Below are positions 3,055-60,945 of a stretch of DNA of 60,945 nucleotides, in pieces. Within the stretch, counting starts at the first letter, position 1. Every line of letters starts with the position of its first letter. The position numbers and the translations under genes were made by a program. The stretch is from a bacterium (GTDB taxonomy: Bacteria; Chloroflexota; Anaerolineae; Epilineales; Epilineaceae). The notes below the pieces were generated by a model. The model did no database searches and had not been told where the DNA came from. It saw only the letters and a program-made list of their open reading frames with translations. The stretch lies in assembly GCA_003576755.1 (NCBI GenBank), contig QEVT01000006.1:1-60945 (forward strand). The letters are read 5' to 3'.

Positions 3055-3169
3055 TCGGCGGCCGTCGGCCGGGCGTCGGGCATGCATGGGGCGGGCGACC
3101 AGCACCGGCCGGCGCGGCCGGGTAGAATGGGCTCGCAATCGTGGATTCTCCTCCTCCTCACGAGGTCCA

Positions 3170-3198
3170 GGGCCGGGCGCAGCCGCTGCGCTCGGCCC
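3170..3198. terminator. GC-rich 13-bp stem / 3-nt loop hairpin between convergent trmB and the thioesterase gene
   Basis: GGGCCGGGCGCAG-ccg-CTGCGCTCGGCCC pairs 3170-3182 with 3186-3198. On the plus transcript there is one G.U pair. No U-tract follows on either strand, so the terminator function is tentative. Confidence 0.3.
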
Positions 3199-3323
3199 TG
3201 TGCCGTCGGGGCGATCGTCGCATGCCTCACCCCGAGGCGCCGGAGACCGTCGTCGGTGCTCTCGCCGGGCCGCTCACGGCGACGGCGCGGGACCGGCGGC
3301 CGCGCCGCCGGCGCGGCATCCCC

Positions 3324-4124
3324 TCACACGTCGAGCGCGCCGAGGTCGGCCGCGACCGCGGCGATGACCCCGCTGCCTTCGGGCTGCAGGAAGAAGTGCC
3401 CGCCGGTGAAGACACGCACATCGAAGGCGCCGGTCGTCTGGTCTGCCCAGGCCTCGAGGTCCGTGCGGCCGACCTCGCGGTCGTCGCGGCCGCCGAACGC
3501 CGCGATGGGCGCCCTGAGCGGCGGCTCGGGGGCATAGCGGTAGCTCGCCATCACCGCGACATCGGCGCGCAGGATGGGAAGGAACAGCGCGAGCAGCTCG
3601 GGGTCGGCCAATATGGCCTCGGGGATGCCGTCGTACCGCCTGCGCAGCTCGGCCACCAGCTCGGCATCGGGGAGCCGGTGCAGCGGCGGAAAGCGTTCCG
3701 GGAGGTGCGGGGCACGCCGGGCCGCCACCGCGAGATAGGCCGGCTCGATCCCATGGCCACGGCGCAGCGCACGCGCCAGCTCGAAGCCGATCAACGCGCC
3801 CAGGCTGTAGCCGAAGATCGCCAGCGGCTTGTCGAGCAGCGGCGCACAGGCCGCGGTCAGACCGGCCACCAGCGGATCCAACCGTACGGCCGCCGGTTCG
3901 CGAAACCGGCCTTCGCGTCCCGGGAGCTGCGCCAGGCGGACCTCGATCGTGGCCGGCATGGCGCGCGGCCACGCGCGATAGACCGACGCGCCAACGCCGG
4001 CATACGGGATGCAGAGCAGCCGCATCGCCGCGGCCGGCCGCGGTGCCGGGCACGTGAGCCAGGCGCCCGCGGCGACGGCCGGGGCGCTCTGCGCTTTCGG
4101 GGCGGCAGAGTCGGTCGCGGTCAT
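3324..4124 (-). CDS. Type II (editing) thioesterase, last gene of the cluster
   Basis: ATG 4124 overlaps the GT stop (ATGA at 4121-4124). Motifs include LLCIPYAGVGASVY, the nucleophile elbow GYSLGA and the C-terminal GGHFFL. Only the last 266 aa of ORF 3324..5216 are considered real. Confidence 0.88.
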   Translation of the reverse strand: MTATDSAAPKAQSAPAVAAGAWLTCPAPRPAAAMRLLCIPYAGVGASVYRAWPRAMPATIEVRLAQLPGREGRFREPAAVRLDPLVAGLTAACAPLLDKPLAIFGYSLGALIGFELARALRRGHGIEPAYLAVAARRAPHLPERFPPLHRLPDAELVAELRRRYDGIPEAILADPELLALFLPILRADVAVMASYRYAPEPPLRAPIAAFGGRDDREVGRTDLEAWADQTTGAFDVRVFTGGHFFLQPEGSGVIAAVAADLGALDV

Positions 4125-5398
4125 GGGGGTGTCCTGATCCCGGATCGTGGTGCATCGGGCCGAGCCTGCACCGCCGCCGCCTCGCACAACGCCGCGAGCT
4201 GCCCGGCGCTGACGCGCCACACCCAATGCCTTTCGGCATAGCGCCGCCCTGCGGTCGCCAACGCGGCGCGGCGTTCCGGCGCGTTCAGCAGGTCGACCAC
4301 CGCGGCGGCGAACGCTCCGGGGTCGGCCTCGGACGTCACCACCGGCGGCGGGTCGTGGTCCTCGATCCGCAATCCCTCCGCCACCACGGGCGTCGTCACC
4401 ACCGGCAGCCCCATCGCCATGGCTTCCTGGACCTTGTTCTGCAGGCCCGAGGCGTAGCGCAGCGGCGCGACGAACACCGTCGCGGCGGTCAGGTGCGGCC
4501 GCAGGTCGTCGACGAACCCCGTCACCATCACCGTCGGATCTCCCGCCGCACGCGCCACGAGATCCGGTGTGGGATCGCGTCCCGCAATGCAGACCTCGAC
4601 GTCCGAGGTCATGTCGCGGATGCGCGGCAGGATCGCGCCGACCAGCAACCGGGCGGCATCGTCGTTTGGGGCGTAGCTCATCACCCCGCTCAGCACCAGC
4701 CGCCGCGGGTGGGGCGCGATGCCCGGCGCCCGCCGCCAGTACGCGAGGTCGACCCCGTTCGGGATGACCGCCGTGACGTCCGCCGGCCCGGCTCCGACCC
4801 CCGGGCCGAGGATCGCGGCGCGATCGCGGGCGGAGATGAACGACAAGTACGGTGTCGCGGCGACCGCGCGCCGCTCCATCCGCCGCACCGCGACCCGCTG
4901 GAGCGCGAGGAGCATGCGCTTGCGCCAGCCGACGCAGCCCATCCGCATCCCGATGCGCAGCGAGCCCGCGTCGCAGAAGTCGAGCACCAACGGCACCCGC
5001 CCTCGGCCCGCGACGACGCCGAGCAGGTTCTTGCCGTGGAGGAGGACGACGTCGTGCGCGCCGGCGTCGGCGATGGCTGCGTCGAACGCCCGGCGCATCG
5101 CGCGCGTCGCAGCGCCGAAGCGCGCGATGCGCGCCGACCTGCGTCCCAGGCTTGTCGGCTTGCCCTCGGTCGGATCGTTGGATGGCGCCGACGTCCGGCC
5201 GACGGGCACCGGCCACGTCGCCATGCGTTCGGTGTACCCTTCGATCTCGGCCATCACGTCGGGCGGGACGGGCTGGTCGGTCAACGTGAGCAGCGTGATC
5301 GCGTGATCGTGCGCCAGCTCGCGCAGGAAGTGGTAATGCCGGTTCGGCCCGCGGAGGCGCGGGTGCTGCAGCATGAACGTGACGTAGAGGATGCGCAT
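4121..5398 (-). CDS. GT-B fold (group 1 / GT4-like) glycosyltransferase
   Basis: 425 aa. The N-terminus reads MRILYVTFMLQHPRLRGPNRHYHFLRELAHDHAITLLTL. The C-terminal donor-binding segment reads YASGLQNKVQEAMAMGLPVVTT. The ATG at 5398 directly abuts the upstream stop (5399-5401). Confidence 0.85.
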   Translation of the reverse strand: MRILYVTFMLQHPRLRGPNRHYHFLRELAHDHAITLLTLTDQPVPPDVMAEIEGYTERMATWPVPVGRTSAPSNDPTEGKPTSLGRRSARIARFGAATRAMRRAFDAAIADAGAHDVVLLHGKNLLGVVAGRGRVPLVLDFCDAGSLRIGMRMGCVGWRKRMLLALQRVAVRRMERRAVAATPYLSFISARDRAAILGPGVGAGPADVTAVIPNGVDLAYWRRAPGIAPHPRRLVLSGVMSYAPNDDAARLLVGAILPRIRDMTSDVEVCIAGRDPTPDLVARAAGDPTVMVTGFVDDLRPHLTAATVFVAPLRYASGLQNKVQEAMAMGLPVVTTPVVAEGLRIEDHDPPPVVTSEADPGAFAAAVVDLLNAPERRAALATAGRRYAERHWVWRVSAGQLAALCEAAAVQARPDAPRSGIRTPP

Positions 5399-6310
5399 TC
5401 AGCCCACGCCAGGCGAATCGCGTTCAGGAGCGGCGCGACTGCCCTCGAAGCGGGCCATCCACGCCGAGCAGGCGTCGACGAGCCGCGCCTGGGACGTCAG
5501 GCGCGTGAACACGTGATCGGCCCCCTCGACCACCTCGACGGCAAACCGGCCCGTGGCCAACCAGCGCGGCAGGTCCGCACCGCTCCGCACGTGCAGGAAG
5601 TCCAGGCCGACATCGGCTTCGCTGAAGACCATCAGAACCTCGAAGCCACGGTCGAGAAGGGTGTCCAGCACCGGCGCCCCCCCGCCGCGATCGGCCACCG
5701 CGGGCGCCGCCGGGTGCACCCGCCGTGCGCGCCGCGTCTGATATGCCGCCTTCCAGCGTTCGAGGTCCGGCGCGATGCGGCTCGGTCGAAGCGCGCCGCG
5801 CGGGTTCAGCACGATCACCTTCCAGTAGTGTCGGAAGAGCTTGCGGGTGTACGCCCGCGCCGTGGTCCACCGGTCATGCTGGGGGCCGCGGACGTTGATC
5901 AGCACGGTCCCGACCACCCGCGCATCATCCAGTCCGGCGCGGAGGGCCGTCGCGGCGCCCGAGCAGAGGCCCAGGAGCACGAAGCGTCGCAGCCCACGAA
6001 CGGCGCCGAGGAATGCCATGGCCTCGCGGGTCTCTGCCACCACGCTCTGCCGAAAGGGCGCATGGTCCTCCCGGACGGCGCTGTCGCCAATGCCCGAGAA
6101 GTCGAAGCGCAGGACGGTGAAGCCCTCCGCGGCCAGGCGCCGGGCAAGCTTGACGTGGAGGCGGTTGGGGCCCACATGGTGAATCCGCCCGGCATCGAGG
6201 ATGATGACGGCTGGCCGGTCGGCCGCCGCCGGGACGGGATCGGGCTCGGCGAGGACGCCCACGAGCGCGGCGTGGTGCCCGAACAGCACGGCGGTCTCGA
6301 TCATGGGCAC
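5399..6310 (-). CDS. Alpha/beta-hydrolase fold protein with a cysteine at the nucleophile elbow (G-L-C-S-G)
   Basis: 303 aa. It contains FTVLRFDFSGIGDS and the elbow LLGLCSGAATAL, with the Cys codon at 5963-5965. A C-terminal EGADHVF is a His candidate for the triad. The second Met (6304) forms an ATGA overlap with the upstream stop, so the start is 6310 or 6304. Confidence 0.8.
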   Translation of the reverse strand: MPMIETAVLFGHHAALVGVLAEPDPVPAAADRPAVIILDAGRIHHVGPNRLHVKLARRLAAEGFTVLRFDFSGIGDSAVREDHAPFRQSVVAETREAMAFLGAVRGLRRFVLLGLCSGAATALRAGLDDARVVGTVLINVRGPQHDRWTTARAYTRKLFRHYWKVIVLNPRGALRPSRIAPDLERWKAAYQTRRARRVHPAAPAVADRGGGAPVLDTLLDRGFEVLMVFSEADVGLDFLHVRSGADLPRWLATGRFAVEVVEGADHVFTRLTSQARLVDACSAWMARFEGSRAAPERDSPGVG

Positions 6311-7172
6311 TGCTCGACCAACCAGGCCGTGATCGCCTTCAGCACGGCGTGCGGGACGAGCACCTTGTTGATGTCCTCGATCCAGATCGATGGGGTGTCG
6401 ATCGACACGACGTCGACGCGCGACCCGAGCTCCGTCAGGTGGCCGCGCAGCCGTCCGAGATCCGTGGGCACGCCCGTATCCACGACGAAGACCCGCGGGC
6501 CGGGTGGGGCGGGAAGCGCCAACAGGTCGAGTGCGGCCAGATCGGACCGGAGCGCCGCGGGCAGTCCGAAGCCGAGCACCTCCGCCACCGGCTCACCGGC
6601 CGGCGGCGCTTTCACCGGCACCGGGAACGACCGCATGCGCGCCCGATGCCGGGCCGCCAGGTCGTCCAGGTAGACCGCGCCGTCGACCACCGGGTCCCAC
6701 AGGACAAGGCCGTCGACGCCGCCGCCGTCGACCGCGGCCTGGGCTGCCAGCGATGCCCCCAGACGCAGACCGACCAGCGCGACGGATGCCACCCCGCTGC
6801 GGGCACGGAGCACGTCCATCGCGCTCACCGCATCCTCGCGCCAGCGCTCCAACCGACCATCGCTGTCGCCGCCGGCGGCGTCGCCGGTGCCGTACCAGTC
6901 AAACCGCAGGCAATGGAACCCGGCACGGACCAGTTGGCCGGCCAGTTGTTTGAGGGCGCGGTGGGCGCGAATCGACTCCTGGCCGACCGGCCCGCAGATC
7001 ACGATCCCGGTGCGTCGCCCTGGGTGCATCGGCGGCCGGTGGTGGCAGCCGAACAGCGCCCCGCCCGGTGTCCCGAAGAACAGCGGCACGCACTCGGGCT
7101 CTGCGCCGCCACCCGTCCCGGGGCGGGCGACGAGGGCTGGGCGCACGAACGGGGCCGGGCGGGGCGGGTCGA

Positions 7173-7176
<4 letters not shown>
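6301..7176 (-). CDS. Alpha/beta-hydrolase fold paralogue lacking a nucleophile (G-L-R-L-G)
   Basis: GTG 7176 overlaps the NRPS stop (GTGA at 7173-7176). It contains FHCLRFDWYGTGDA and the elbow VALVGLRLGASLA. The Arg codon at 6763-6765 sits where Ser or Cys is expected. It aligns with the downstream hydrolase across the core. Confidence 0.75.
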
Positions 7177-19011
<11,835 letters not shown>

Positions 19012-19054
19012 CGCCGTCCCCGGGGCGCGGCCGCGCCGCACACGATGCGCACCA

Positions 19055-22000
19055 TCAGCCGTAACCCGCCTGCTCGAGCTCGTCGAGGAGCGATGCCTCC
19101 GCCTCGGCTTCGGTCAGGGCGGCGACGGCGCCGGCGATGGCGGTCGCGTCGGCCTCGGCGGCGACCGCGCCGCCGACGGCATGGCCGTTGGGCCCGCCGG
19201 CGCCGGGCGCCGCCGGGCCCGTCGGGCCCGCGGCGAAGACCTCGGCGGCGAGGAACTCGGCCAGGGCGGTGACGGTGGGGTACTCGAAGGCCAGCGTCGA
19301 CGGCAGCTTGTGGCCGAGGCTGCGCTGCAGGCGGTTGCTCAGCTCGACCGCCGTCAGCGAGTCCATGCCCATGTCGGACAGACCCTGCTGCGGGTCGAGC
19401 GGCTGCGACGGGTCCAGCGCGAGCACGCCGGCGATGTGCCCGTTGAGGTGCGCCAGGAGCAGGCCGTATCGGTCGGCCGGCGCGGCGGCCTCGATCTCCG
19501 CGCGGATGGTCGCCCCGGGCGCCGGCCGATCGACGGACGGCCCGGTGGGTCGATCGGCCGGCCGGGCGGGCCGCATGACGTCGCGCAGCATCGGCGGCAC
19601 GCGAGCCGGGGCGGCGGCCGATGGCGCCGGCGCGTCCCAGCGCATCGGCAGCACCGCGACCTGGGTGGCGTCGGCGGCGACCAACCGTTCGAGGATGGCC
19701 ACCCCCTCGTCTGGCCGGATCAGGCGCATGCCCTGCTGCCGCCAGCGCTCGCGGTCGCGCTCGCCCAGAGCCGCCGCCATGCCGACGTCCGCCCAGGGCC
19801 CCCAGTTGACGCTGAGCGCGGTCAGGCCCTGGCCGCGCCGGTGGTGCGCCAGCGCGTCGAGGAACGCGTTGGCGGCGGCGTAGTTGCCTTGCCCGGCCGA
19901 TCCGAGCACGGCGCCGCCGGTGGAGAAGAGCACGAAGAAGTCCAGCGGCAGGTCACGCGATCGCAGGTGCAGGTTCCAGGCGCCGGCCACCTTGGGCGCC
20001 ATCACCGGCGCGAAGCGCGGCCACGATTGCTGGGCGAGCATCCCGTCGTCGAGCACGCCGGCCGCGTGGATGATGCCGCGGAGGGACGGCAACCCGGCCG
20101 CGATCTGCCCGAAGATCCGGTCGACGTCCTCGCCGCGCGCGACGTCGCCGGTGGCGACGACGACCTCGACCCCGCGTGCCGCGAGGGCGTCGATGGCCGC
20201 CTGTGCCGCTTCAGATGGACCGTTCCGGCTCGTGAGGACGACGTGGCGCGCCCCGCGGTCCGCCAGCCATTCGGCCACCTTCAGGCCGAGGCCGCCCAGG
20301 CCGCCGGTGACGAGGTAGGTGGCGTCGGGGTGGATCGCGGCGCCGCCGGCGGCCTGCACGGTCCCGTCCTCCGCCGCGTGCGTCAGCACCACCTTGCCGA
20401 TGTGTCGGGCCTGGGCCATGTAGCGGAAGGCGTCCGGGGCCCGGGCAATCGGGAAGGCCTTCAGCGGCAGCGGCCGGAGCGTGCCGGCCTCGAACAGGGC
20501 GATCAGCCGACGCATCATGCCGCGCACGCGCTCGGGGTCGGCGTGCAGCACCGCGCCGAGGTCGTACAGGTGGTAGCGCAGCGTCGGGTTGAGCGCGGCG
20601 ACCTGTTCGGCCGTCCACACGCCGCGCTTGCCGATCTCAAGGAAGCGGCCGCCTGCGGCAAGCACGCCCAGGCTCTTGGGGATGAACGCGTCGGCCAGCG
20701 CGTTGAGGACGATCGTGACGCCCCGGCCGCCGGTCAGGGCCATGACCTCGTCGGCAAAGTCGAGCGTGCGCGAGCTCATGACGTGGGCAACGCCGAGCGA
20801 CCGGAGGAACGCCTGCTTCTCGTGGTTGCCGGCCGTGCCGTAGACCTCCGCACCGGCCTGCAGCGCGATCTGCACCGCCGCCAGGCCGACGCCGCCGGCC
20901 GCGGCGTGGACGAGCACCCGGTCGCCCGGCCCGATGCCGGCCAGCTCGTGCAGCCCATACCACGCCGTCAGGAAGTTGATGGGGATGGTCGCCGCTTCGG
21001 CGAGGCCGAGGTTGGCGGGCGTGCGAAAGGCCACGGCCGCCGGAACGGTCACGTGCGACGCGAATGCCCCTGGTGCGAGGGCGATCACCGCGTCGCCCAC
21101 CGCCAGGTCCGTGACCCTCGCGCCGACCGCCACCACCACCCCGGCGCACTCGCCGCCGATCGGCCCCGGATCGCCGGGATACATGCCCAGGGCGTTGAGG
21201 ACGTCGCGGAAGTTCAGCCCGCTGACCCGCACCGCGATCTCCACCTCGCCCGACCCCGGCGCGCGCCGCTCGAGGGGACGGACGACCAGGTTGTCCAGCA
21301 CGCCGCGCTCGGTGATGCCAAGGGTGTACGGTCCGGGCGGCAGCCCCTCGTGCTCCGCCGCCTTCGACGCGCCCATGGGCGCGAGGCGCGCCGCGTACCG
21401 CGTGCCGTCGCGAAGGGCGACCTGGTCCTCGTCGTCCGAGGCATGGATCGCGTCGAGCAGCTGCGCGGCTCCCTGTTCGGCATCGGCGGCGGGATCGAGG
21501 TCCACGCACACGCACCGCAGCTCGGGGTGCTCGAGCATGGCCGTGCGGCCCAGGCCCCACAGCGGCGCCTGCGCGGGCGCGCGGACCGCCCGATCGGTCC
21601 CGGCCGCCTGGGCCCCGCGCGTCACCAGCCACAGCGGCGGCGACGCCGGTGGCATGGATGGGCCGGCCGCCTGCGCGGCCAGGGCCTGCACGAGGTGCAG
21701 GGCGCCGCCGCACAGGCGCGGGTCGGCAGCGGCCGAGTCGGCGTCGGCTTCGCCGGAGGCCAGGTCCAACGACCACAGGTACACCACGCCGCGGAGCGGC
21801 CGCGAGCCGACGCCGGCGTCCTCGACAAGCAGCCGCCGGAAGTCGTCCATCCGCAGCGGATCGATGCGGTAGCCGTCGGGCTGCGCCTGCCACCCGTCGG
21901 CCACACGAACGACGGTGCACGTCTGTCCGGCCGCCAACAGCCGTGCGACCAGCGCGTCGGCCACGCCGGCGCCGTCGGCGAAGACGAGCCAGCGGCCCGG

Positions 22001-25000: not shown

Positions 25001-25830
25001 GCCGCAGCCTTCGCCCCGCACGTAGCCGTCCGCCGAGGCATCGAACGTCTTGCAGCGGCCGTCGAACGACATCATCCGCAGGCGGGACGTGACGACCGCG
25101 CCGTCGGGCAGGAGGTTGAGGCTCACCCCGCCGGCGAGCGCCAGATCGCACTCGCCGCCGCGCAGGCTCTGGCAGGCCAGATGGACGGCCATGAGCGACG
25201 ACGAGCAGGCGGTGTCGACCGACAGCGCGGGGCCGCGCAGGCCGAGGGTGTACGCGATGCGCCCGGCCGCGACGCTCGGCGCCGTGCCGGTGCCGAAGTA
25301 GATGTCCACCGACGACAGGTCGCCGAACAGGTTCGGCAGATGACCGTAGTCGGTGCCCGACATGCCGATGAAGACGCCACCCAGGCTGCCGGCCAGGCTC
25401 CCGGGTGCGATGCCCGCATGCTCCAGGGCTTCCCAGGCCACCTCCAGGAGGAGCCGCTGCTGCGGGTCCATGCTGGCCGCCTCGCGCGGCGAGATACCGA
25501 AGAACTGCGGGTCGAACAGGTCGGCATCGCGGATGAAGCCTCCCCAACGCGTATAGGCCTTGCCGGGCGTGTCCGGGTCCGGATCGTAGTACGCGTCCAC
25601 GTCCCACCGCTCCGGCGGAACCTCGGTCACCGCGTCCACGCCGTCGTGAAGGAGCCGCCAGAACGCCGCCGGGTTGTCCGCCCCTCCCGGGAACCGGCAG
25701 CCCAGCCCCAGGATGGCGATCGGCTCGCGGTGCGACCGGCGCAACGCCTCGACCTCGCCCTGCATGGCCTCGACCCGGGCAACGGCCCACGCGAGCTGTG
25801 ACTGTCCGTTGGTGTGCTGCGAATGTTGGC

Positions 25831-25834
<4 letters not shown>
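19055..25834 (-). CDS. Type I PKS, module F: KS-AT(malonyl-type)-DH-ER-KR-ACP
   Basis: ATGA overlap with gene E at 25831-25834. The KS has [13 protein letters not shown] and [12 protein letters not shown]. The AT has GHSVGE and HAFH. The DH has HPLLG...[11 protein letters not shown] (G to D variant) and [10 protein letters not shown]. The ER has [13 protein letters not shown]. The KR has [16 protein letters not shown] and GQGNYAAAN. The ACP has [10 protein letters not shown]. Confidence 0.95.
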
Positions 25835-32079
<6,245 letters not shown>

Positions 32080-32085
32080 GGTCGT

Positions 32086-32092
32086 CCTCCTT
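32086..32092 (-). promoter_or_regulatory. Shine-Dalgarno AAGGAGG for gene E, in the only sizeable intergenic gap of the operon (32080-32175)
   Basis: The minus-strand sequence is GTGAAGGAGGACGACC-ATG, with a 6-nt spacer to ATG 32079. Confidence 0.7.
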
Positions 32093-32175
32093 CACCCGGG
32101 CGCCCGGCGCCATGGCGCCGCGCATCCATCCGCTCCGTCGGGCTCCCGGCGCCTTCGCACCGACCCTCCCTCCGT

Positions 32176-40454: not shown

Positions 40455-40458
<4 letters not shown>
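32176..40458 (-). CDS. Type I PKS, module D: KS-AT(malonyl-type)-DH-cMT-ER-KR-ACP
   Basis: ATGA overlap with gene C at 40455-40458. The KS has [13 protein letters not shown] and KTNLGHLEAAAG. The AT has GHSLGE and HAFH. The DH has HPLLG...DHRVNGRPILP and HPAWLDACLQ. The cMT has RIIEIGAGTGGTT and GLTDGWWRYAD. The ER has [13 protein letters not shown]. The KR has [16 protein letters not shown] and GQANHAAAN (His). The ACP has LGLDSLMAVEL. Confidence 0.95.
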
Positions 40459-45292
<4,834 letters not shown>

Positions 45293-45296
<4 letters not shown>

Positions 45297-48200
45297 CGCG
45301 TGCTCTCGCCTTCTCCGCGACTGACGGCGGCCGTCAGCTCCGCCAGCAGCAGCTCGGCGGCCTGCGCTTCCGACAGATGCTCGATCTCGGCCTCCGTCGC
45401 CTGCCGAGCTCCGGCGGCCCCGAAGTCGTGGGCGGCCTGAGGCTCCTGTCCGCCGGTGGCCCCCCGTCCGCTCTGCGCCGCCGACGCGCTCGCGGGCCGC
45501 CCGGCGTCGGCCGCCGCCGAGAGCACGGTGTTCAGATGATCGGCCAGCGCCTCGACGCTGGGGTGGTCGAACACGAGCGACGCCGGCAACGGCCGGGCAA
45601 GCGCCAGGTCCGCGCCGAGGACGTTGCGCAGCTCGACGGCCATGAGCGAATCGAGGCCCAGCGCGTGCAACGGCCGGCCGGTGTCGAACGGCTGGTCGGG
45701 CTCGATCCCGATGACGCGGCGTGCGCGGTCGCGGACGAAGCCGACCAGGAGCGCCCGCCGGCGGCCAGCCGGAGCCGCGGCGAGGGTGCGGCGGAAGGCC
45801 GCCTCCGGCGCGTCCGCGATGGCGCGATGTCCGCCCGGCGGGGCGGGGGACGGTCGGCCCGCTGCCGGCGGGGCGGCCGGCACGGCTGCGGCGTCGACGA
45901 GACCGTCGCTCCAGCGCGCCGCCCGCCCCGCCGGCACCGCTTCGCGGAACCGCCGCCAGTCGACCGGTGAGACCACGATCTGTGCCGGGATGTGGGTGCC
46001 ATCGGCGGTCGACGCGACGACGAGATGGGCGAACGCCGCGAGCCCTTCCGCCGGCGCCATGGTCCCGACGCCCCGTGCCGCCAGCCGGACGGCGACGTCG
46101 CCCCGCGCTGCGCGGCCGATCTCGGACCACGCGCCCCAGTTGACGCTGAGCGCGGGCAGGCCCTGCGCCCGGCGGTGGTGGGCCAGGGCGTCCATGAACG
46201 CGTTGGCGGCGGCATGGTTGGCCTGCCCGGGCGACCCGATCACGGCCGAGAGGGACGAGTACAGGACGAAGTGGTCGAGCGGCCGGGCCGTGGTCAACCG
46301 GTGCAGGATCCACGCACCCTGCGCCTTGGCGGCGAACACCCTCGCGAAGCGCCCTTTGCTCTGCGAGAGCAGCGCGCCGTCGTCCAGCACGCCCGCAGCG
46401 TGGAACACGCCGCGCAAGGATGGCATCTCGGCGTCGATGGCCTGGACGAGGCGGCGCATCGCGGCCTCGTCCGCGACATCCGCCTGCTCGACACGGACTT
46501 CGACGCCGGCCCGCTCGAGCGCGGCGAGCCGGGTCCGGACGGCGGCGGACGGCGCGCGGTGCCCGACCAGGACGAGGGATCGGGCGCCCTGATCCACCAG
46601 CCACTCCGCCGTCAGAAGGCCGAGGCCGCCGAAGGCCCCCGTGATGAGGTAGGTGGCGTCGGCGCGCACCGCGGCGGCCGGATGGCGCACCACGAGCTTG
46701 CCGATGTGCTCGCCGCGGGCCATGATGCGGAAGGCGGCGGCCGTCTCGGACCACGCGAACGCCTGGTGCGGCAGCGGTTCCAGCCCGCCTGCCTCGATCT
46801 CGGCGGCGAGGCCCTGCACGAGGCGGCCGACGCGCACGGGGTCGGCGGTGAACATGGCCGCCATGTCGACGACACGGTATTGGGCCGCCGGCCGAACGGC
46901 CGCGACCCGAGCGGCGTCCCAGATGCCGCGCTTGCCGATCTCGACGAAGCGGCCGTCGTGCGCCAGCGCCGCCAGGCTCGGCGCGATGAAGGGGTCGGCC
47001 AGCGCGTTGAGCACGACGTCGACGCCGCGACCGCCCGTGATGTCGAGGACGGCGGCGGCGAAGTCCTCGGCACGCGAGCTGAAGACATGGGCCACGCCGA
47101 GCGATCGGAGGTGGGCACGCTTGGCGTCGCTCCCGGCCGTGGCGAAGACCTCGGCGCCCGCCCGGTGCGCGACCTGCACGGCGGCCAGCCCCACCCCGCC
47201 CGCCGCCGCATGGATCAGCACCCGCTCGCCAGCCCGCAGGCTCGCGACCTCGCGGAGGGCGTGGGCGGCAGTCATGAACGCGACGAGCACGGTCGCCGCC
47301 GCGTCGATCGACAGCCCCACCGGCTTGCGCACGACCAGGGCGCGGTGGGTCGTGACGTGCGACGCGAAGGCCCCCGGTGCGACGGCAAGCACCGCCTCGC
47401 CGATCGCGAGGTCGTCGACCCCGGGGCCCAGCGCAGCGACCGTGCCCACGCACTCGCCGCCGAGCGGTCCGGCATCGCCTGGGTAGGCCCCCAACGCGTT
47501 GAGCACGTCGCGGAAGTTGAGACCGGTGGCCTGAACGCGAATCTCGACCTCGCCGGGCCCCGGAGGCCGGCGCTCCGCCGGCTGCCAGCGCAGGCTCTCG
47601 ATCACCCCCGGCGTGGCCGTGACCAACCGGTACGGGCCGCGCGGTGGGGTGGACGGACCGATGGCGGCCGCGGGCGGCCTGGCGGCCAGGCGCGCCAGGC
47701 GCGTGACGAACGTGGCTCCGCCGCGCAGGGCGAGCCGGTCCTCGTCGCCGCCCGCCGCCAGCGCCGCCGCGAGCGCGGCGGCGCTCTCCGCGTCGGTGGC
47801 GCGCGGGTCGAGATCGATGCATGTGCAACCGAGCTGCGGATGCTCCAGGGCAATGGTCCGCGCCATGCCCCACAGCGTGGCGTGCGCCAGGCCGGGCGAC
47901 GCCGGCGCTTCCGCGTCGCTCCGAGGCGCCCCGCTCGCCGTCGGATCCGATCCCACGACCTGGCTGCCGCGCGTCACCAGCCACAGGCGCGGCGGCACCG
48001 CCGCGTCCGAGCGGACGATCGCCTGTGCCACGTGCAGGGCGCCGAGGCTGCCCGGGCCTTGCACCGCTGCCACGGCGACGGCATCGGCGTCGCCCGCGAG
48101 CGGCGCGTCCAGGCTCCAGAGATGCACGACGCCGTTCAGCGCCACCCCGAGCTGGGCCTGAACCGCCCGCAAGGCGGCCTCGACCGCGCCAGGGTCGGTT

Positions 48201-51200
48201 GGATCGACGGTCTGCGTGCCGGCGTCCGCGCCCGGGGCCGCGCCGGGCCGCGCCCGTACCCGACCCACGCGGCCGCCGTGCCGTTCGATCGCCGCCGCCA
48301 GGGCGGCGCCGACGCCGCCGGCATCTTCCAGGATGAGCCATGCGCCGGGCACGGCGACGTGCGCCGTCGCCGATTCCGCGGGCGCCGCGGCGGTGATGAC
48401 CGCCTGCGGGAAGAGCGCGGACGCGTCGTCGCTGCTCGCGCGCACGACCGACGGGTCGCCGAAGCCGCAGTCGGTCAGCAGGCGCGCCCAGCGGTCCGGC
48501 GCCAGGAGCGGATACGCCGGCCGCAGTCCCACGTCGGCAAAGCGCCACCAGCCGTCGGTCAGCCCGAAGGTGAGGTCCACCCACCGCCGCGCGGCCGTGC
48601 CTTCGAGCAGGACCAGGCGACCGCCCGGGGCCAGGAGACGCCGCACATGACCGAGCGTCGCCGCAAGGTCGCGCGTGGCGTGCAGAACGTTGGCCGCCAC
48701 GATGACGTCGAACGCTCCCGGCGCGTGGCCCTGGGCCTCGGGATCGCGCTCGATGTCGAGGCTGCCGAAGGTCACCCACGGCCAGTCGGCCAGCTTCGCG
48801 CGCGCCTTGGCCACCAGCGCGGCCGAGATGTCGGTGAACGTGTAGCGGGTGCGCTCCGCCGGCAGGCGCGGCAGGATGAACGCCGTGGTGCCCCCCGTGC
48901 CGGCGCCGATCTCCAGCACGCGCAGCGGCCGATCGGCCGGCATGCCGGCCGCCGCCGCCGCGACGGCCTCGGCCACCAACGCGTTGGCGTGGCGGGCCGT
49001 CGCCGAATCGCGGTACAGCGGATCGAGCAGCGCCGTCGAGCCGCCCGGGAACAACAGCGACAGGGGATCGCACGCGCCGGTCAGCACCTCCGCCAGACGC
49101 GCCCCACAACGCTCCAACAGCGCAAGCTCGGCCTGGCCGCCGGGATGAACCGCGCGGAGCGACCGCAGCTCGGTCGCGGGATCGCCGGGCTCCGGCGCCC
49201 GCCCCACCCGCCACGACCCGCCGGCCTCGCGGCGCAAGACCCCCTCCTCCGCGAGCATCTCGAGCATGCGGGCCACCAGCCGCTCCTTGCCGGGGGCGAT
49301 GCCCAAGCGGCCGGCCAGCGTGTCGACCTCGATGAGGGCGCCGGGTGTCAGCGGGCAGCCCACGGTGTCCAGCGCGGCGGCGGCGAACGCCGCGCACAAC
49401 CGGTCCAGCGCCGGCAGGAGGTCGACGGGATCGGCCTGTGCCGGAACCTCGGGCGGCGCGGCGCCGCCTTCGACATCGGGCGTGTCGGCGCGCGCAAGAC
49501 CGCCACGTGCCCCGTCGCGGGCGCCGCGGTCCGCGCCTTCCGCATCGTGCGGCGCGGCCGGCGGCTCCCAACGGGGTGCGTAGAGCCAGTCGCGCCAATC
49601 GCGCCAGCCCGCCGGTGGCCCGTCGGCGGCGAGCGCTGCCGCTTCGACGCGCCTCAGCACGAGACCGCGCACATCGCCCACCCGCGTGCCGTCCGGCGCG
49701 AAGAGATGGATGTCGACCGTGCAGACGTCGCCGGGCGCGGCGCCGGCGCCCCGCGGCACGGCGTGGCTCCACAGGCGCGTGCCGGCGGGGCGGAAGAAGC
49801 GGACGGATTCGACGCCCACCGGCAGGTAGGGGTCGTTCGCCCGGTCCGGGACCGTCGACGTTGCGTCGCCCCGTCCGCCATGGCCGTTCCTGTCGCGCAT
49901 GCCCGCATGCCCGGGCGGCCAGGCGGCGAAGAGCACCTGCCAGCACGCATCGAGGAGCGCCGGATGCACCGCGTAGGTGTCGCGATCGGCCGCTTCGTCC
50001 GGCAGGACCACCTCGCCCAGCGACGCGCCCTCGCCGCCCCACAGATCGACGATGCCGCGGAACGCCGGGCCGAACGCGATGCCCCACGCCTCGAAGCGGC
50101 GGTAGTGGGCCGGGATGTCGACCGCCGCGCGGCAGCGTTCGCGGGCCCGCGCCAGCGAGACCGCGGCGCCGGCATCGTGATCGTTCGGCGCGGCGCCCTC
50201 GCCGCACCGCGCGATGCGGGCGGTGGCGTGCCGGAGCCATCGACCGGCGTCTTCCAGTCCGATGCTGAACACGTCGACCGTCGCGGCGCCGTGCCCGTCC
50301 GCCGTCACGACCGTCTGAAGCGTCCGCGCGGCGGCGCGATCCAACACCAGCCGGCGGTCGATCGCCAGGTCCTCTACCGTGCTTGGACCCTCGAGGGCGC
50401 GGGTGGCGGCCGCGAGCGCCAGCTCGACGTAAGCCGTGGCCGGGAGCACGACCTGCCCGGCAACGGCGTGGTCGGCGACGAACGCCGGGCGATCGGCCCG
50501 GAGCGTCGCCTCGAAGACGACGGCGTCGGACTGCGGCGATCCCACCCGATCGCCGAGCAGGGGATGCCCGGTGGCGGAGCGATGCGGCGCCCCGAATGCC
50601 GCGGGCACGTCGTCGAACTGCCGGTTTGCCGCGGGGCGGTCGCCGGCCCGCGCGGATGCCGCGGCCAGCCAGTAGCGCTGGCGCTGGAAGGGATAGGTCG
50701 GCAGCGCCAGGCGCCGCCGCGAGTAGGGGCGGTCGAACGCCGCCCAGTCGACGGACGCGCCGTGGGCGTAGAGCGTCGCGAGGCTGTCCAGGATGACCGC
50801 CCAATCGTCGCGTCCCCGGCGCAGCGAGGGCAGCCAGTGGCCTTCGCCCTCCGGCAGGCAGCGCTGGCCCAGCGCGATCAGCGTCGGGCGCGGCCCGATC
50901 TCGACGAACGCCGTGATGCCCCGCGCGCGCAGCGCCGCCATGCCTTCGGCGAACCGCACCGGCGATCGGGCGTGGCGGCGCCAGTACTCGGGCGTCGTCA
51001 CGTCACCGCCCGCGGCGACGCTGCCCGTCACGTTCGAGAGCACGGGCAGATGCGGGGCGTGGTAGGCGATGCCCCCCGCGGCCCGTTCGAAGGCGTCGAG
51101 CATCGGGTCCATCATGGGCGAGTGGAAGGCGTGCGAGACCTGCAGCCGGCGCCAGCGGATGCCGTCGGTGTCGAACCGGGCGCAGAGGGCGTCGACCGTC

Positions 51201-53545
51201 GCCGCCGGGCCCGAGACCACGACGTGCTCCGGTCCGTTCAGGGCGGCGATGGCCACCGCGCCGTGATGCGGCGCGATGGCGGCCCGCACGCGGTCCTCGG
51301 GCGCGAAGACGGCCGCCATCGCCCCGTCCCGGGGAAGCGCGCCCATCCCGCGCGCCCGTTCGGCGACCAGCCGCAGGCCGTCTTCCAGGCTGAAGGCGCC
51401 GGCCACGCAGGCAGCGGTGACCTCTCCGATGCTGTGGCCCAACACCGCGGACGGCGCGATCCCCCAGGCCCGCCACAGCTCCGCCAGGGCGTACCCCAAC
51501 GCGAACAGCGCCGGCTGGCTGTACGTGGTGTCGTCGATCCGGGCGGACGCATCGGGGTCGGCCGGGTCGGCGAACAGGACGTCGAGCAGCGGCCGGGCGA
51601 GATGCGGCCGGAGCAGCTCGGCGCAACGTTCGAGCGCGGACCGGAACACCGGTTGGGTATCGTACAGGCCGCGGCCCATCCCGGCGTGTTGCGCGCCCTG
51701 GCCGGTGAAGAGGAACGCCACGCGCGGCGGCGGCCGACCGTCGCGTTCGCCGGCGTGGAGACCGGCCGCCGGCCGGCCGTCGAGCCAGGCCGCGAGGTCG
51801 GCGCGCAGGGCGTCGGCGCGCGGTCCGACCCAGGCCAGGCGATGGTCGAAGTGCGCGCGGCCGGTGTTGGCCGTGAACCCGATGTCCGCCACGGAGAGGT
51901 CGGGATGGGCGCCGAGGTGGGCGACGTGGCGCTCGGCCAGCGCGCGCAGCGCCGGCGCCGAGCGGGCCGAGAGCGCGACCGCATGCAGCGGCCGCTCGAG
52001 CGGGGACGCGGCCGGCCCGGCGGGCCCCGCCACCGTCGTCGGGCCGCCCTGTCCCGCCCGGTCGACGCTTCGCGGCACGTCGCCGATCCGTGGGGCGGGT
52101 TCTCCGGGCGCGTGCCCCGACCCGCCGGCGCCCGCCACGTCGCCCGTGCTCGGGGCCGACTCGAGGACGACGTGGGCGTTGGTGCCGCTGAAGCCGAACG
52201 CGCTGACGCCGGCAAGCCGCGGTCCCGGACCTTCCGGCCACGGGGTGCGGCGCGTGGGGACGGTGATCGGCAGGGCGGACCACGCCACGTGCGGGGTCGG
52301 CCGGGTGAGGTGAAGGTGGGGCGGGATCTCGCCGTGATGCAGCGCCAGCACGGTCTTGATCAGGCCCGCCACGCCGGCCGCGGATTCCAGGTGGCCCAGG
52401 TTGGTCTTGACCGAGCCGATCGCCAGCGGCCGGTCGGCGGGCCGGCCCGCGCCGTAGGCGGAGGCGAGCGCCTCGATCTCGATCGGGTCGCCCAGCGCGG
52501 TCCCCGTGCCGTGCGCCTCGACGTAGTGGACCGCTGCCGGCGCCACGCCGGCATCGGCCAGGGCGTCGCGGATGACGTCGGCCTGGGCCGTCCCGTTCGG
52601 CACGGTCAGGCCGCCGCTGGCGCCGTCCTGGTTGATGGCCGAGCCGCGAATGACCGCCAGCACGCGATCGCCGTCGGCCACGGCGTCCGCCACGCGCTTG
52701 AGGACGACCACGCCGCAACCCTCGCCGCGCGCGAAGCCGTCGGCGCGTGCGTCGAACGTCTTGCAGCGGCCGTCGGGCGCCAGCATGCCCCACTTCGAGA
52801 AGCTGACGAACAGCTCGGGCGCGAGCACGGCGTTGACGCCGCCGGCCAGCGCCAGATCGCAGCCGCCGCTGCGCAAGCTCTGGCACGCGGTGTGCACGGC
52901 CACGAGCGACGAAGAGCACGCGGTGTCGATGGCCAGGCTGGGGCCGCGCAGGCCCAGGATGTAGGCCACGCGCCCGGGCGCGGCGTTGAGCACGTTGCCC
53001 GAGGTCAGGTAGGCGTCGATGGCGGCCGGATCCATCCGCCGGGTGTGCAGTTGCAGGTAGTCCGACGTCGTGATGCCGACGAACACGCCCGAGCGGCTGC
53101 CGGCGAGGCGGTCCGGCGCGATCCCGGCATGCTCGAGCGCTTCCCACGCCACTTCGAGCAGCATCCGGTGCTGCGGGTCCATGCTCGGAACCTCGCGCGG
53201 CGCGATGCCGAAGAAGGCGGGATCGAACCGATCGACGCCCGCGACGAAGCCGCCCCGGCGGGCGACCATCTTCCCGGGCGCCGCCGGGTCCGGATCGTAC
53301 CAGGCGTCGACGTCGAATCGTTCGCGCGGGATGTCTCCCGTGGCGTCCCGTCCATCGGAGAGCAGCCGCCAGAAGTCGTCCGGGCCGTCGACACCCCCCG
53401 GCAGCCGGCAGCCGATGCCGATCACCGCGATCGGCGCGCGCCGGCGCTGTTCGTCGGCCTTCAGCCGCGCGCGCAGCCGGTCGATGGCATCCAGCGCGTC
53501 CGACAGCCGGGCGGCGAGGTCGTGGGGAGGCATCATCGCGTTCAT
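45293..53545 (-). CDS. Type I PKS, module B: KS-AT(malonyl-type)-DH-cMT-ER-KR-ACP
   Basis: ATG 53545 lies 6 nt after the gene A stop. The KS has [13 protein letters not shown] and KTNLGHLESAAG. The AT has GHSIGE and HAFH. The DH has HPLLG...DHAVAGQVVLP and [10 protein letters not shown]. The cMT has RVLEIGAGTGGTT and GLTDGWWRFAD. The ER has [13 protein letters not shown]. The KR has [16 protein letters not shown] and GQANHAAAN (His). The ACP has LGLDSLMAVEL. Confidence 0.95.
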
Positions 53546-53551
53546 CGGCGG

Positions 53552-59482
<5,931 letters not shown>

Positions 59483-60357: not shown

Positions 60358-60362
60358 ACCCC

Positions 60363-60944: not shown

Positions 60945-60945
60945 G

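What the first reader, a model, noticed from the sequence alone, without database searches (positions are those of the whole stretch)
3324..59482. 56-kb single-strand hybrid cis-AT PKS/NRPS cluster with an unusual combination of features
Twelve co-directional genes encode 7 PKS modules and 2 NRPS modules, followed by tailoring and off-loading genes (domain order as in the summary). The collinear prediction is a largely saturated acyl chain with several methyl branches (three cMT domains plus one further MT). It would carry one unreduced beta-keto position and a beta-sulfated hydroxyl, and be amide-linked to Gly-Xaa. It may then be passed to a sugar.

The window contains no PPTase, MbtH-like protein, trans-AT, PAPS-synthesis gene or transporter. 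No module has a TE or R domain. I cannot match this combination to any pathway I know, but I cannot search databases.
Basis: partly seen in the sequence, partly recalled or inferred. Interest (0 to 1): 0.75.

Follow-up and report, generated by a model that had tools for sequence, protein, structure and literature searches.

The report
Orphan sulfating PKS-NRPS island in Chloroflexota
A 56.5-kb, strain-variable gene island in an uncultivated, very GC-rich Chloroflexota bacterium encodes an uncharacterised assembly line, predicted to make a methyl-branched, probably sulfated fatty-acyl dipeptide, and it ends in an unstudied pair of hydrolase-like proteins and a glycosyltransferase instead of the usual release enzyme.

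Summary
Twelve co-directional genes on the minus strand (3324-59482) encode seven PKS modules, two NRPS modules, two alpha/beta-hydrolase-fold proteins, a GT4 glycosyltransferase and a type II thioesterase.

A near-identical strain has an empty site. This shows that window 3207-59739 is a presence/absence island that holds exactly these genes. The host is a Chloroflexota MAG.

- Module 7 has lost its AT core.
- Three KRs carry His in place of the catalytic Tyr. This variant recurs elsewhere and tracks C-methyltransferase modules.
- A 5-nt duplication frameshifts the start of the ST-containing gene in this assembly. A sibling genome lacks the duplication.
- The two hydrolases are a conserved couple: a Cys-His-Asp enzyme and a partner without a nucleophile. 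In 61 of 62 metagenome loci they sit together, almost always directly after a TE-less NRPS carrier domain.

An ST followed by a C domain recurs in several phyla. I found no characterised example. The closest relatives (at most 58% identity) are unnamed MAG clusters.

My best reading is a sulfated, tetramethylated lipo-dipeptide released by the hydrolase pair, perhaps onto a sugar. The fate of the sulfate and the acceptor are inferred. I rate it a new variant of a known kind, of moderate to high interest.

The parts
3207..59739 (.). Strain-variable island holding the whole cluster. A near-identical strain has 62 bp of unrelated sequence here.
   Evidence: blastn of empty-site locus L096 against the window: L096 6659-9864 matches window 1-3206 at 99.94%, and L096 9927-11131 matches window 59740-60945 at 99.67%. 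No tRNA, flanking repeat or integrase.
53552..59482 (-). G1, module 1: KS-AT-DH-KR-ACP, with no loading domain. Its AT belongs to a different clade (VASH motif).
   Evidence: Pfam. KS Cys-His-His intact. AT is 36-39% identical to the other ATs. The same 1976-aa gene call appears in L095, L097 and L098.
45293..53545 (-). G2, module 2: KS-AT(HAFH)-DH-cMT-ER-KR-ACP. The KR has His2444 (nt 46214-46216) at the catalytic Tyr position.
40455..45296 (-). G3, module 3: KS-AT(LPAH)-cMT-ACP. It has no KR, so the beta-keto group is kept.
32176..40458 (-). G4, module 4: KS-AT(HAFH)-DH-cMT-ER-KR-ACP. KR His2469 (nt 33052-33054).
25831..32079 (-). G5, module 5: KS-AT(HAFH)-cMT-KR-ACP. KR His1831 (nt 26587-26589).
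19055..25834 (-). G6, module 6: KS-AT(HAFH)-DH-ER-KR-ACP. The KR keeps Tyr.
10634..19011 (-). G7, module 7 plus NRPS module 1: KS-(AT core missing)-KR-ACP-ST-C-A(Gly-like)-PCP. The uninterrupted ORF starts only at GTG 18871. The true ATG is at 19011, in another frame.
   Evidence: The sibling genome encodes an intact 2795-aa protein.
18943..18952 (-). 5-nt tandem duplication (CGCGC CGCGC) that frameshifts the N-terminal docking region of G7.
   Evidence: Alignment with L100 (GCA_026645665.1), 99.57% identical over 17.6 kb.
17072..17752 (-). KS-AT linker and post-AT linker of module 7, with the ~330-aa AT core cleanly missing between them.
   Evidence: No Acyl_transf_1 hit. Three-way alignment with G6 and the AT-containing homologue in L007. 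Also AT-less in L100 and L088.
14198..14863 (-). Sulfotransferase domain (CurM-ST family) lying between the ACP and a C domain.
   Evidence: PF13469, 97.8 bits. 46% identical to CurM ST, and all 47 columns invariant across 12 aligned sequences are kept.
7173..10637 (-). G8, NRPS module 2: C-A(DPRHCAFQAK)-PCP. It ends at the PCP, with no TE.
6301..7176 (-). G9, hydr2-like alpha/beta-hydrolase fold. Arg138 (nt 6763-6765) sits at the nucleophile elbow, and no catalytic His is conserved. It is probably a non-catalytic partner.
   Evidence: Best NCBIfam hit TIGR03101, 94.5 bits, below its cut-off. Alignment A3.
5399..6304 (-). G10, hydr1-like alpha/beta hydrolase. Cys114 in the GLCSG elbow (nt 5963-5965) is invariant, His264 is nearly invariant, and there is a Glu-Ala-Asp (SEAD) motif. 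It is the proposed chain-release or transfer enzyme.
   Evidence: Best NCBIfam hit TIGR03100, 94.7 bits, below its cut-off. Alignment A2. Genomic contexts.
4121..5398 (-). G11, GT4-family glycosyltransferase.
   Evidence: PF13692 and PF00534. Best NCBIfam hit TIGR03087 (stp1), 186 bits, below its cut-off.
3324..4124 (-). G12, type II thioesterase (GYSLG).
   Evidence: PF00975, 149.6 bits. Motif. In L007 a homologue coexists with an in-line TE.

Best explanation
The region is an intact-looking but uncharacterised modular PKS-NRPS pathway. It is carried as a 56.5-kb accessory island in an uncultivated, high-GC Chloroflexota bacterium.

Shown by the sequence:
- There are seven PKS modules. Every KS keeps the Cys-His-His triad and all four cMT domains keep their SAM motifs.
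- A CurM-type sulfotransferase domain follows the last ACP.
- Two ordinary LCL-type C-A-PCP modules come next. The first has a Gly-like specificity code.
- No TE or R domain ends the line.

Inferred by collinearity, assuming an acetate starter: a chain of about C16, namely 3-hydroxy (sulfated)-7-hydroxy-11-oxo-6,8,10,12-tetramethyl-hexadec-14-enoyl, amide-linked to Gly-Xaa.

Proposed mechanism:
1. The KR of module 7 makes the beta-hydroxyl.
2. The ST sulfates it on the ACP, using PAPS from primary metabolism.
3. The C domain then accepts the sulfated acyl chain. I think the sulfate is most likely retained in the product, giving an anionic lipopeptide.
4. Malonyl for the AT-less module 7 must come in trans, from a neighbouring AT or from FabD.
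5. Release is not by a TE. The Cys-His-Asp hydrolase G10, working with its catalytically dead partner G9, takes the chain from the G8 PCP as an acyl-S-Cys intermediate. It passes the chain to water or, more interestingly, to a sugar or glycan acceptor made by the adjacent GT4 enzyme G11.
6. G12 is an editing thioesterase.
For: - Architecture and intact catalytic motifs.
- Precise island boundaries from an empty site, so no further pathway genes are hidden nearby.
- A sibling genome (99.6% nucleotide identity) has an intact G7. pN/pS is 0.39 over the cluster.
- The AT-less state of module 7 is kept in a diverged orthologous cluster whose hydr1 protein is 52% identical.
- His-type KRs recur in other PKSs, often with DH or ER downstream, so they are probably active.
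- KR-ACP-ST-C-A-PCP recurs in Chloroflexota, Hydrogenedentota and Desulfobacterales. Other ST-C junctions occur in Blastocatellia and Nitrospiraceae.
- An embedded ST whose sulfate stays in the product has a precedent in the Planktothrix oci cyanopeptolin synthetase: PMC2533009.
- One ST-C module (L009) also has a DH. That makes 'ST as a substitute for dehydration' unattractive.
- hydr2 lies directly upstream of hydr1 in 61 of 62 metagenome loci. A carrier domain lies within 1.5 kb upstream in 41 of 43. The gap from carrier domain to hydr2 is 210 nt or less in 48 of 59, which leaves no room for a TE.
- The same tail, C-A-PCP, hydr2, hydr1, GT, TEII, occurs in two other MAG lineages.
- The Ardenticatenaceae homologue that lacks the hydrolase pair has an in-line TE instead, and still has a type II TE.
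- The Cys in G[IL]CSGA is invariant and the His is nearly invariant in hydr1. In hydr2 the nucleophile is replaced by Arg.
Against: - No product, transcript or enzyme activity is known, so all the chemistry is collinearity-based inference.
- In this assembly G7 is frameshifted at its 5' end. Module 7 has no AT and the island has no trans-AT.
- How module 1 is primed is unknown, so the chain length is uncertain.
- The ATs of G1 (VASH) and G3 (LPAH) have atypical motifs.
- The closest characterised STs (CurM, OLS, haliamide) use sulfate as a leaving group, not as a final decoration.
- The hydrolase pair has no characterised member. The nearest solved structures are generic esterases.
- The genes downstream of the pair differ between lineages, so a sugar acceptor is not a general rule.
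- The NCBIfam hits to the XrtA-system families are all below their trusted cut-offs.
Confidence: 0.5

Rival explanations
1. The sulfate is only a leaving group, following CurM-like logic adapted to an amide-forming line. After or during condensation the 3-sulfate is eliminated or displaced. Elimination would give a 2- or 3-enoyl amide. Displacement by the C7 hydroxyl, for example, would give a tetrahydropyran. In either case the final product carries no sulfate.
For: - The ST is 46-50% identical to the 'activating' CurM/OLS-type STs and keeps every residue that is invariant in the alignment with CurM ST.
- The characterised KR-ACP-ST systems I know of or read about (curacin, olefin synthase, haliamide; PMC6274090) use sulfate as a leaving group.
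- The predicted chain places a free 7-OH six atoms from C3, by my inference.
Against: - Decarboxylative elimination needs the free carboxylate that the CurM-type TE produces. Here the thioester becomes an amide.
- The line already owns working DH domains, so using ST plus PAPS merely to dehydrate would be wasteful. L009 combines DH, KR and ST in one module.
- The C domain looks like an ordinary LCL type with HHxxxDG.
- The Planktothrix oci line retains the sulfate put on by its embedded ST.
Confidence: 0.25
2. Release is ordinary hydrolysis by the discrete thioesterase G12. G9 and G10 are accessory esterases or lipases, or cell-envelope enzymes that are merely co-located. G11 glycosylates a hydroxyl of the free lipopeptide.
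For: - G12 is a good PF00975 thioesterase with GYSLG.
- Discrete TEs release products in some pathways (my own knowledge).
- G9 lacks a nucleophile.
- The nearest solved structures to G9 and G10 are esterases.
Against: - In L007 the same type II TE coexists with an in-line TE, which fits an editing role.
- The hydr2-hydr1 couple follows TE-less carrier domains in 41 of 43 informative loci, most of which have no TEII nearby.
- The couple replaces the TE exactly where the window's lineage differs from L007.
Confidence: 0.2
3. The cluster is decaying in this strain and makes nothing. The signs would be the frameshift in G7, the missing AT, the Tyr-to-His changes in three KRs and loss of the whole island in a sister strain.
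For: - 5-nt duplication causing a frameshift.
- AT core deleted.
- Empty-site strain.
- pN/pS of 0.39 rests on only 59 substitutions.
Against: - The sibling genome has the intact gene. The frameshift lies in a GC-repeat tract and may be an assembly error.
- The AT-less state is conserved in clusters whose proteins are only 52-58% identical.
- His-KRs recur in 13 unrelated PKS proteins.
- All other catalytic motifs are intact across 56 kb.
Confidence: 0.12

Closest known systems
CurM / olefin synthase / haliamide HlaB terminal KR-ACP-ST-TE modules
   Same: The same ST family (46-50% identity to CurM ST), in the same position directly after the ACP of a KR-containing module. It presumably sulfates the beta-hydroxyl with PAPS.
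   Different: A C domain and two NRPS modules follow the ST here, not the dedicated TE. The decarboxylative route to a terminal alkene is therefore not available.
Planktothrix cyanopeptolin synthetase OciA (embedded sulfotransferase, sulfated glyceric acid starter)
   Same: A sulfotransferase domain built into an assembly line that continues with peptide-bond formation, and whose sulfate stays in the product (PMC2533009).
   Different: In oci the substrate is a glyceric acid starter loaded by a GA domain in a pure NRPS. Here it is a beta-hydroxy polyketide at a PKS-to-NRPS junction. I could not compare the sequences.
Unnamed KS-AT-KR-ACP-ST-C-A-PCP / C-A-PCP-TE clusters of Ardenticatenaceae and other Chloroflexota MAGs (L007-L009)
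   Same: Closest relatives of the ST-C junction, at 47-49% identity, with the same two NRPS modules, a type II TE and PKS modules upstream.
   Different: L007 keeps the AT in the ST module and ends in an in-line TE. It has a PPTase and no hydrolase pair or GT. These clusters are uncharacterised.
Orthologous tails in MAGs GCA_964498575.1 and GCA_964415605.1 (L087-L089)
   Same: The same order: ST-C-A-PCP, C-A-PCP, hydr2, hydr1, GT4, TEII. hydr1 is 52-58% identical. The ST module is AT-less.
   Different: The L088 and L089 module also lacks the KR. L087 adds a P450. The contigs are too short to show the PKS part. These clusters are uncharacterised.
XrtA/PEP-CTERM-system 'hydrolase 1' (TIGR03100), 'hydrolase 2' (TIGR03101) and glycosyltransferase stp1 (TIGR03087)
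   Same: These are the best NCBIfam hits of three adjacent genes. The two hydrolases are always paired. In the XrtA loci they accompany an acyl-AMP ligase and an ACP, according to the TIGRFAM descriptions as I remember them. Here and in metagenomes they follow A-CP and C-A-CP.
   Different: All three scores are below the trusted cut-offs. No exosortase or PEP-CTERM genes lie in or next to the island. No function is known for the family.

Membership tests
Modular type I cis-AT PKS | Every extension module carries its own KS, AT and ACP. | tested here: not met
   Met for modules 1-6. Module 7 (G7) has a KS with Cys-His-His, a KR and an ACP, but its AT core is deleted. The line is best described as cis-AT with one AT-less module.
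trans-AT PKS | AT-less modules served by a discrete AT encoded in the cluster. | tested here: not met
   Six modules have an in-line AT. No free-standing AT gene lies in the island or its flanks.
CurM/OLS-type sulfotransferase-thioesterase off-loading | A KR-ACP-ST arrangement with an ST of the CurM family. | tested here: met
   KR residues 904-1096, ACP about 1203-1280, ST 1337-1558 in G7. 46% identity to CurM ST with all invariant columns kept.
CurM/OLS-type sulfotransferase-thioesterase off-loading | The ST is followed by the dedicated TE, which hydrolyses the chain and triggers decarboxylative elimination. | tested here: not met
   The ST is followed by C-A-PCP. Among the 80 best ST loci, 10 have a C domain next and most of the rest have the hydrolase-type TE.
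NRPS elongation modules (C-A-PCP) | C domain with HHxxxDG, an A domain with core motifs and the A10 Lys, and a PCP with the Ser attachment motif. | tested here: met
   HHVAADG and HHIVSDG. AMP-binding and AMP-binding_C hits. Specificity codes extracted. PCP motifs.
Canonical NRPS/PKS termination (in-line TE or R domain) | The terminal carrier domain is followed by a TE or reductase domain. | tested here: not met
   G8 ends 13 residues after its PCP. The homologue in L007 does have a TE.
XrtA-system hydrolase 1 / hydrolase 2 / stp1 (TIGR03100, TIGR03101, TIGR03087) | Score above NCBIfam's curated cut-off. | tested here: not met
   94.7 bits against a cut-off of 168.45, 94.5 against 202.75, and 186 against 316.65.
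XrtA-system hydrolase 1 / hydrolase 2 / stp1 (TIGR03100, TIGR03101, TIGR03087) | The two hydrolases are encoded next to each other, beside a carrier-protein-dependent acyl-activating enzyme. | tested here: met
   G9 and G10 overlap by 4 nt and follow the G8 PCP. The same holds in 61 of 62 and 41 of 43 metagenome loci.
XrtA-system hydrolase 1 / hydrolase 2 / stp1 (TIGR03100, TIGR03101, TIGR03087) | An exosortase (XrtA) or PEP-CTERM proteins in the neighbourhood or genome. | tested here: inconclusive
   None in the window or within 10 kb on either side. The rest of the genome could not be read.
Type II (editing) thioesterase | A discrete PF00975 protein of about 250 aa with a GxSxG motif. | tested here: met
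   G12 has 266 aa, scores 149.6 bits and carries GYSLG. The editing role is inferred from its coexistence with an in-line TE in L007.
A characterised (MIBiG) biosynthetic gene cluster | High whole-cluster similarity, in the same gene order, to a cluster with a known product. | not testable with these tools
   No MIBiG or antiSMASH was available. Indirectly: no named close homologue of the ST-C region or of hydr1, no hit in the species-representative genomes above 49%, and nothing in the paper library.

The most novel reading that the evidence does not exclude
The hydr2-hydr1 couple, a Cys-His-Asp alpha/beta hydrolase with a nucleophile-less partner, is a widespread and so far unrecognised two-protein chain-release system for TE-less NRPS and PKS lines. 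It would work through an acyl-S-Cys intermediate and hand the (lipo)peptide to a glycan or other non-water acceptor. In this island it has been coupled to a bespoke PKS, and the ST-to-C junction represents a second, undescribed use of assembly-line sulfation. The Tyr-to-His ketoreductases would be a functional KR subtype adapted to C-methylating modules.
Probability: 0.3. Interest if true: 0.8.

Novelty: new variant of a known kind. Interest (0 to 1): 0.62.

Why it matters
Chloroflexota of the Anaerolineae type are abundant but mostly uncultivated, and few of their natural products are known. This island offers three testable pieces of new assembly-line enzymology.

- It shows a CurM-type sulfotransferase feeding a condensation domain instead of the alkene-forming thioesterase.
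- It ends in a conserved pair of hydrolase-fold proteins, found in at least 539 metagenome stretches, that appears to replace the thioesterase at the end of TE-less synthetases. This pair links NRPS chemistry to the poorly understood hydrolase pair of XrtA/exopolysaccharide loci.
- It carries a ketoreductase subtype with His in place of the catalytic Tyr, and this subtype tracks C-methyltransferase modules.

The empty-site strain gives exact cluster boundaries, and the sibling genome gives an intact template. Both make heterologous expression practical.

Tried and rejected
- **Host identification by accession.** Searching papers for the assembly accessions found nothing. The listing of cluster members returned no names. 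The genome-contig scan did not return the host species at all; the best hit was 49% identical. The host was therefore inferred only from relatives of RecR.
- **Exact look-up of G7.** The window's G7 from GTG 18871 is not on record. The sibling was reached through the G8 variant P0130 instead.
- **6-MSAS-like starter.** I considered that G1 might be an iterative, 6-MSAS-like aromatic PKS supplying a starter unit, because it has the same domain order. Its best matches among solved structures are modular PKSs (DEBS, MAS, CurL), so nothing specific supports the idea. I left it as an open point.
- **Specificity of the G8 A domain.** It seemed to resemble the Gly-activating LgrA module 2. The high score was only the sum of two A domains in LgrA, so I rejected this.
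- **Mobile-element signatures at the island ends.** I found no tRNA and no flanking direct repeats. The empty-site filler has no similarity to anything inside the island. There was no Rfam hit and no promoter or terminator consensus.
- **Function of the hydrolase pair.** The literature gave nothing, and profile searches of the PDB found only generic esterases.
- **Tyr-to-His KRs as dead domains.** I rejected this as the main reading because the variant recurs in other PKSs and is accompanied by DH and ER domains.
Full report
**1. What is there**

The window is 75% G+C throughout, so raw ORF lists are dominated by artefacts. Third-position GC analysis picks out twelve genes. All lie on the minus strand, most abut or overlap by 4 nt, and they run from the ATG at 59482 to the stop at 3324.

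Pfam gives this domain order:
- G1: KS-AT-DH-KR-ACP
- G2: KS-AT-DH-cMT-ER-KR-ACP
- G3: KS-AT-cMT-ACP
- G4: KS-AT-DH-cMT-ER-KR-ACP
- G5: KS-AT-cMT-KR-ACP
- G6: KS-AT-DH-ER-KR-ACP
- G7: KS-KR-ACP-ST-C-A-PCP
- G8: C-A-PCP
- G9 and G10: alpha/beta-hydrolase fold
- G11: GT4 glycosyltransferase
- G12: discrete thioesterase

**2. State of the catalytic motifs**

- All seven KS domains keep the Cys-His-His triad.
- Four ATs carry the malonyl-type HAFH motif. G1 has VASH and belongs to a different AT clade, only 36-39% identical to the others. G3 has LPAH.
- The four cMT domains keep the SAM-binding and NVLHAT motifs.
- Both C domains have HHxxxDG and look like ordinary LCL types.
- The first A domain reads DILALCLVWK, close to the canonical Gly code as I recall it. 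The second reads DPRHCAFQAK, with a Lys2-like AHDPLLRD A4 motif, and cannot be assigned.

**3. Boundaries and host**

The exact G11 protein occurs on several short public contigs. These show the same tail followed by TrmB, an HTH protein, RecR, YbaB and DnaX. The nearest named relatives of the RecR protein are Caldilineae, Anaerolineae and Ardenticatenaceae MAGs at 75-79% identity. The host is therefore an uncultivated Chloroflexota bacterium.

Looking up the ECF sigma factor that lies beyond G1 found a contig (L096) in which TrmB is followed directly by that sigma factor. By blastn, L096 matches window 1-3206 at 99.94% and window 59740-60945 at 99.67%, with 62 unrelated bases in between.

Window 3207-59739 is thus a presence/absence island that contains the twelve genes and nothing else. 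Beyond the sigma factor lie a DUF4349 protein, a PAE-like gene, PanB and ApbA. This confirms that no PPTase, trans-AT, PAPS-synthesis gene or transporter belongs to the cluster. A six-frame motif scan found no MbtH or PPTase signature.

The island has the same GC content as its flanks. It has no tRNA, no terminal repeats and no integrase. I cannot tell whether it was gained here or lost in the other strain.

**4.

*(a) Module 7 is AT-less.* The KS-AT linker and the post-AT linker are present, but about 330 residues of AT core are missing. This shows up against both G6 and the Ardenticatenaceae homologue. The deletion is shared by the sibling genome and by a diverged orthologue, L088. It therefore looks tolerated rather than recent damage.

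*(b) G7 is frameshifted in this assembly.* The uninterrupted G7 reading frame begins inside the KS. The natural ATG (19011) and the docking helix are in another frame, because of a 5-nt tandem duplication at 18943-18952. The sibling assembly GCA_026645665.1 is 99.57% identical over 17.6 kb, lacks the duplication and encodes an intact 2795-aa protein. It also has a 15-nt in-frame difference in a linker. Across the comparable genes pN/pS is 0.39, from 29 synonymous and 30 non-synonymous changes.

*(c) Three KRs have His at the catalytic Tyr position.* The KRs of G2, G4 and G5, which are exactly the modules that also hold a cMT, read [10 protein letters not shown]1, G6 and G7 keep Tyr. None of 57 KR motifs in the other fetched loci has His.

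Among the 150 best representatives found with the G2 KR, 15 of 293 KR motifs have His:
- 10 are in modules with a cMT.
- 3 are in KS-AT-DH-KR modules.
- 2 are in truncated proteins.

Only 2 of 278 Tyr-type KRs share a module with a cMT (Fisher p = 1.7e-13). These hits are relatives of the query and are not independent. Because DH and ER domains follow such KRs, I read them as active. I found no description of this variant in the paper library.

**5. The sulfotransferase junction**

The ST belongs to the CurM family. It is 46% identical to the crystallised CurM ST and keeps every column that is invariant in a 12-sequence alignment. The best matches to the ACP-ST-C stretch are only 49% identical and unnamed.

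In species-representative genomes, most of the 80 best ST loci have the CurM-type arrangement. Ten have a C domain after the ST:
- Six of the ten read KS-AT-KR-ACP-ST-C, mostly continuing with A-PCP. They come from Chloroflexota, Hydrogenedentota and Desulfobacterales.
- Blastocatellia and Nitrospiraceae loci also have an ST followed by a C domain, but in a different or only partly visible upstream context.
- Some protein fragments show A-PCP-ST-C.

None is characterised. The known chemistry of KR-ACP-ST-TE is a decarboxylative route to a terminal alkene (and my own knowledge of curacin). That route needs the TE, which is absent here. The Planktothrix oci synthetase shows that an embedded ST can leave its sulfate in the product. 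One ST-C module also holds a DH (L009). The line already has DH domains. On these grounds I favour retention of the sulfate (about 0.5) over a leaving-group role (about 0.25). Neither is shown.

**6. Termination**

G8 stops just after its PCP. The best NCBIfam hits of G9, G10 and G11 are three families from the XrtA/PEP-CTERM exopolysaccharide system: hydrolase 2, hydrolase 1 and glycosyltransferase stp1. All three score below their trusted cut-offs.

Homologues of G10 keep an invariant Cys in a G[IL]CSGA nucleophile elbow, a nearly invariant His and an acidic SE(A/G)D motif. Homologues of G9 mostly have Arg at the elbow and no conserved His.

Six look-ups of G10 homologues all showed hydr2 directly upstream of hydr1, next to carrier-protein enzymes without a TE. 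Two of these were orthologous tails (C-A-PCP, hydr2, hydr1, GT, TEII) from other MAGs.

A metagenome scan with the hydr1 profile, scored with HMMs built from the window's own domains, gave these counts:
- hydr2 lies directly upstream of hydr1 in 61 of 62 informative loci.
- A carrier domain lies within 1.5 kb upstream in 41 of 43.
- An A domain lies upstream in 41 of 43 and a C domain in 39 of 43.
- The commonest domain string is A-CP-C-(C)-A-CP-hydr2-hydr1.
- The gap from carrier domain to hydr2 is 210 nt or less in 48 of 59.
- Seven gaps of about 720 nt encode a PPTase, not a TE.

The Ardenticatenaceae relative that lacks the pair has an in-line TE instead, and still has a type II TE. I therefore propose that G10, with G9 as a non-catalytic partner, releases the chain through an acyl-S-Cys intermediate, and that G12 only edits.

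The acceptor is unknown. Genes downstream of the pair vary between lineages: GT4 or GT1, a flippase with PMT_2, a large protein with a HAD/S6PP-like end, or a carbamoyltransferase. Transfer to a sugar is plausible here but unproven. Neither the literature nor the PDB says anything about the function of the family.

**7. Predicted product (inference only)**

I assume acetate priming and strict collinearity. The chain is then 3-sulfooxy-7-hydroxy-11-oxo-6,8,10,12-tetramethylhexadec-14-enoyl-Gly-Xaa.

Four points are uncertain:
- the starter, because there is no loading domain;
- the substrates of the G1 and G3 ATs;
- whether G3 methylates once or twice;
- who supplies malonyl to module 7.

**8. 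Verdict**

The finding is real. It is still a modular PKS-NRPS cluster. I rate it a new variant of a known kind, interest 0.62. The most valuable leads are the hydrolase-pair release system, the ST-to-C junction and the His-type ketoreductases.

Noticed in passing
window 46214-46216, 33052-33054, 26587-26589 (minus strand): The KR domains of the three modules that also contain a cMT have His instead of the catalytic Tyr (GQANHAAAN). The same variant recurs in 13 other PKS proteins and is strongly enriched in cMT-containing modules (10 of 13 assignable His-KRs, against 2 of 278 Tyr-KRs).
   Followed up: partly
window 18943-18952: A 5-nt tandem duplication (CGCGC CGCGC) frameshifts the N-terminal docking region of G7. 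A sibling genome (L100, GCA_026645665.1) lacks it and encodes an intact 2795-aa protein. This may be an assembly error or a strain-specific lesion.
   Followed up: yes
window 3207-59739 compared with L096 9865-9926: The whole cluster is a presence/absence polymorphism between strains whose flanks are more than 99.6% identical. There are no repeats, tRNA or integrase at the junctions, and the GC content equals that of the flanks.
   Followed up: yes
window 59815-60357 (+) and 60363-60945 (+): An ECF sigma factor and a downstream membrane protein (DUF4349, anti-sigma-like) are transcribed divergently from G1. They are also present, with an identical sigma protein, in the strain that lacks the island, so they are not part of it. 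They could still regulate it.
   Followed up: partly
L092 9228-12442: In an unrelated metagenome contig the hydr2-hydr1 pair is followed by a free-standing ACP and a free-standing sulfotransferase, next to a large PKS. This is a second, independent co-occurrence of sulfation with the hydrolase pair.
   Followed up: no
L088 and L089 (GCA_964415605.1); L037: In these loci the ST module is KS-ACP-ST, with neither AT nor KR. Either the hydroxyl to be sulfated is made by the preceding module or a trans-acting KR is used. Haliamide's ST-TE module also lacks a KR (PMC6274090).
   Followed up: partly
L110, L111, L114, L119, L122, L131 (between the last carrier domain and hydr2): In seven instances across these six metagenome loci, an Sfp/EntD-type PPTase gene of about 720 nt is inserted between the TE-less NRPS and hydr2.
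   Followed up: partly
L132, L138, L169, L173, L094 (directly downstream of hydr1): A recurrent protein of about 1000 aa is encoded directly after the hydrolase pair. In three of these loci (L132, L173, L094) Pfam recognises only a C-terminal HAD / sucrose-phosphate-phosphatase-like region. The L138 and L169 genes were not scanned. This may be the sugar-related acceptor-forming enzyme in those lineages.
   Followed up: no
window 53552-59482 (G1) and 40455-45296 (G3): The G1 AT belongs to a different clade (FPGQGGQW, GHSLGE and VASH motifs), and the G3 AT has LPAH where HAFH or YASH is expected. Their substrates, and the way module 1 is primed without a loading domain, are unclear.
   Followed up: partly
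window ~16783 (G7 residue ~697): A 15-nt in-frame indel relative to the sibling genome, in the linker upstream of the module 7 KR.
   Followed up: partly
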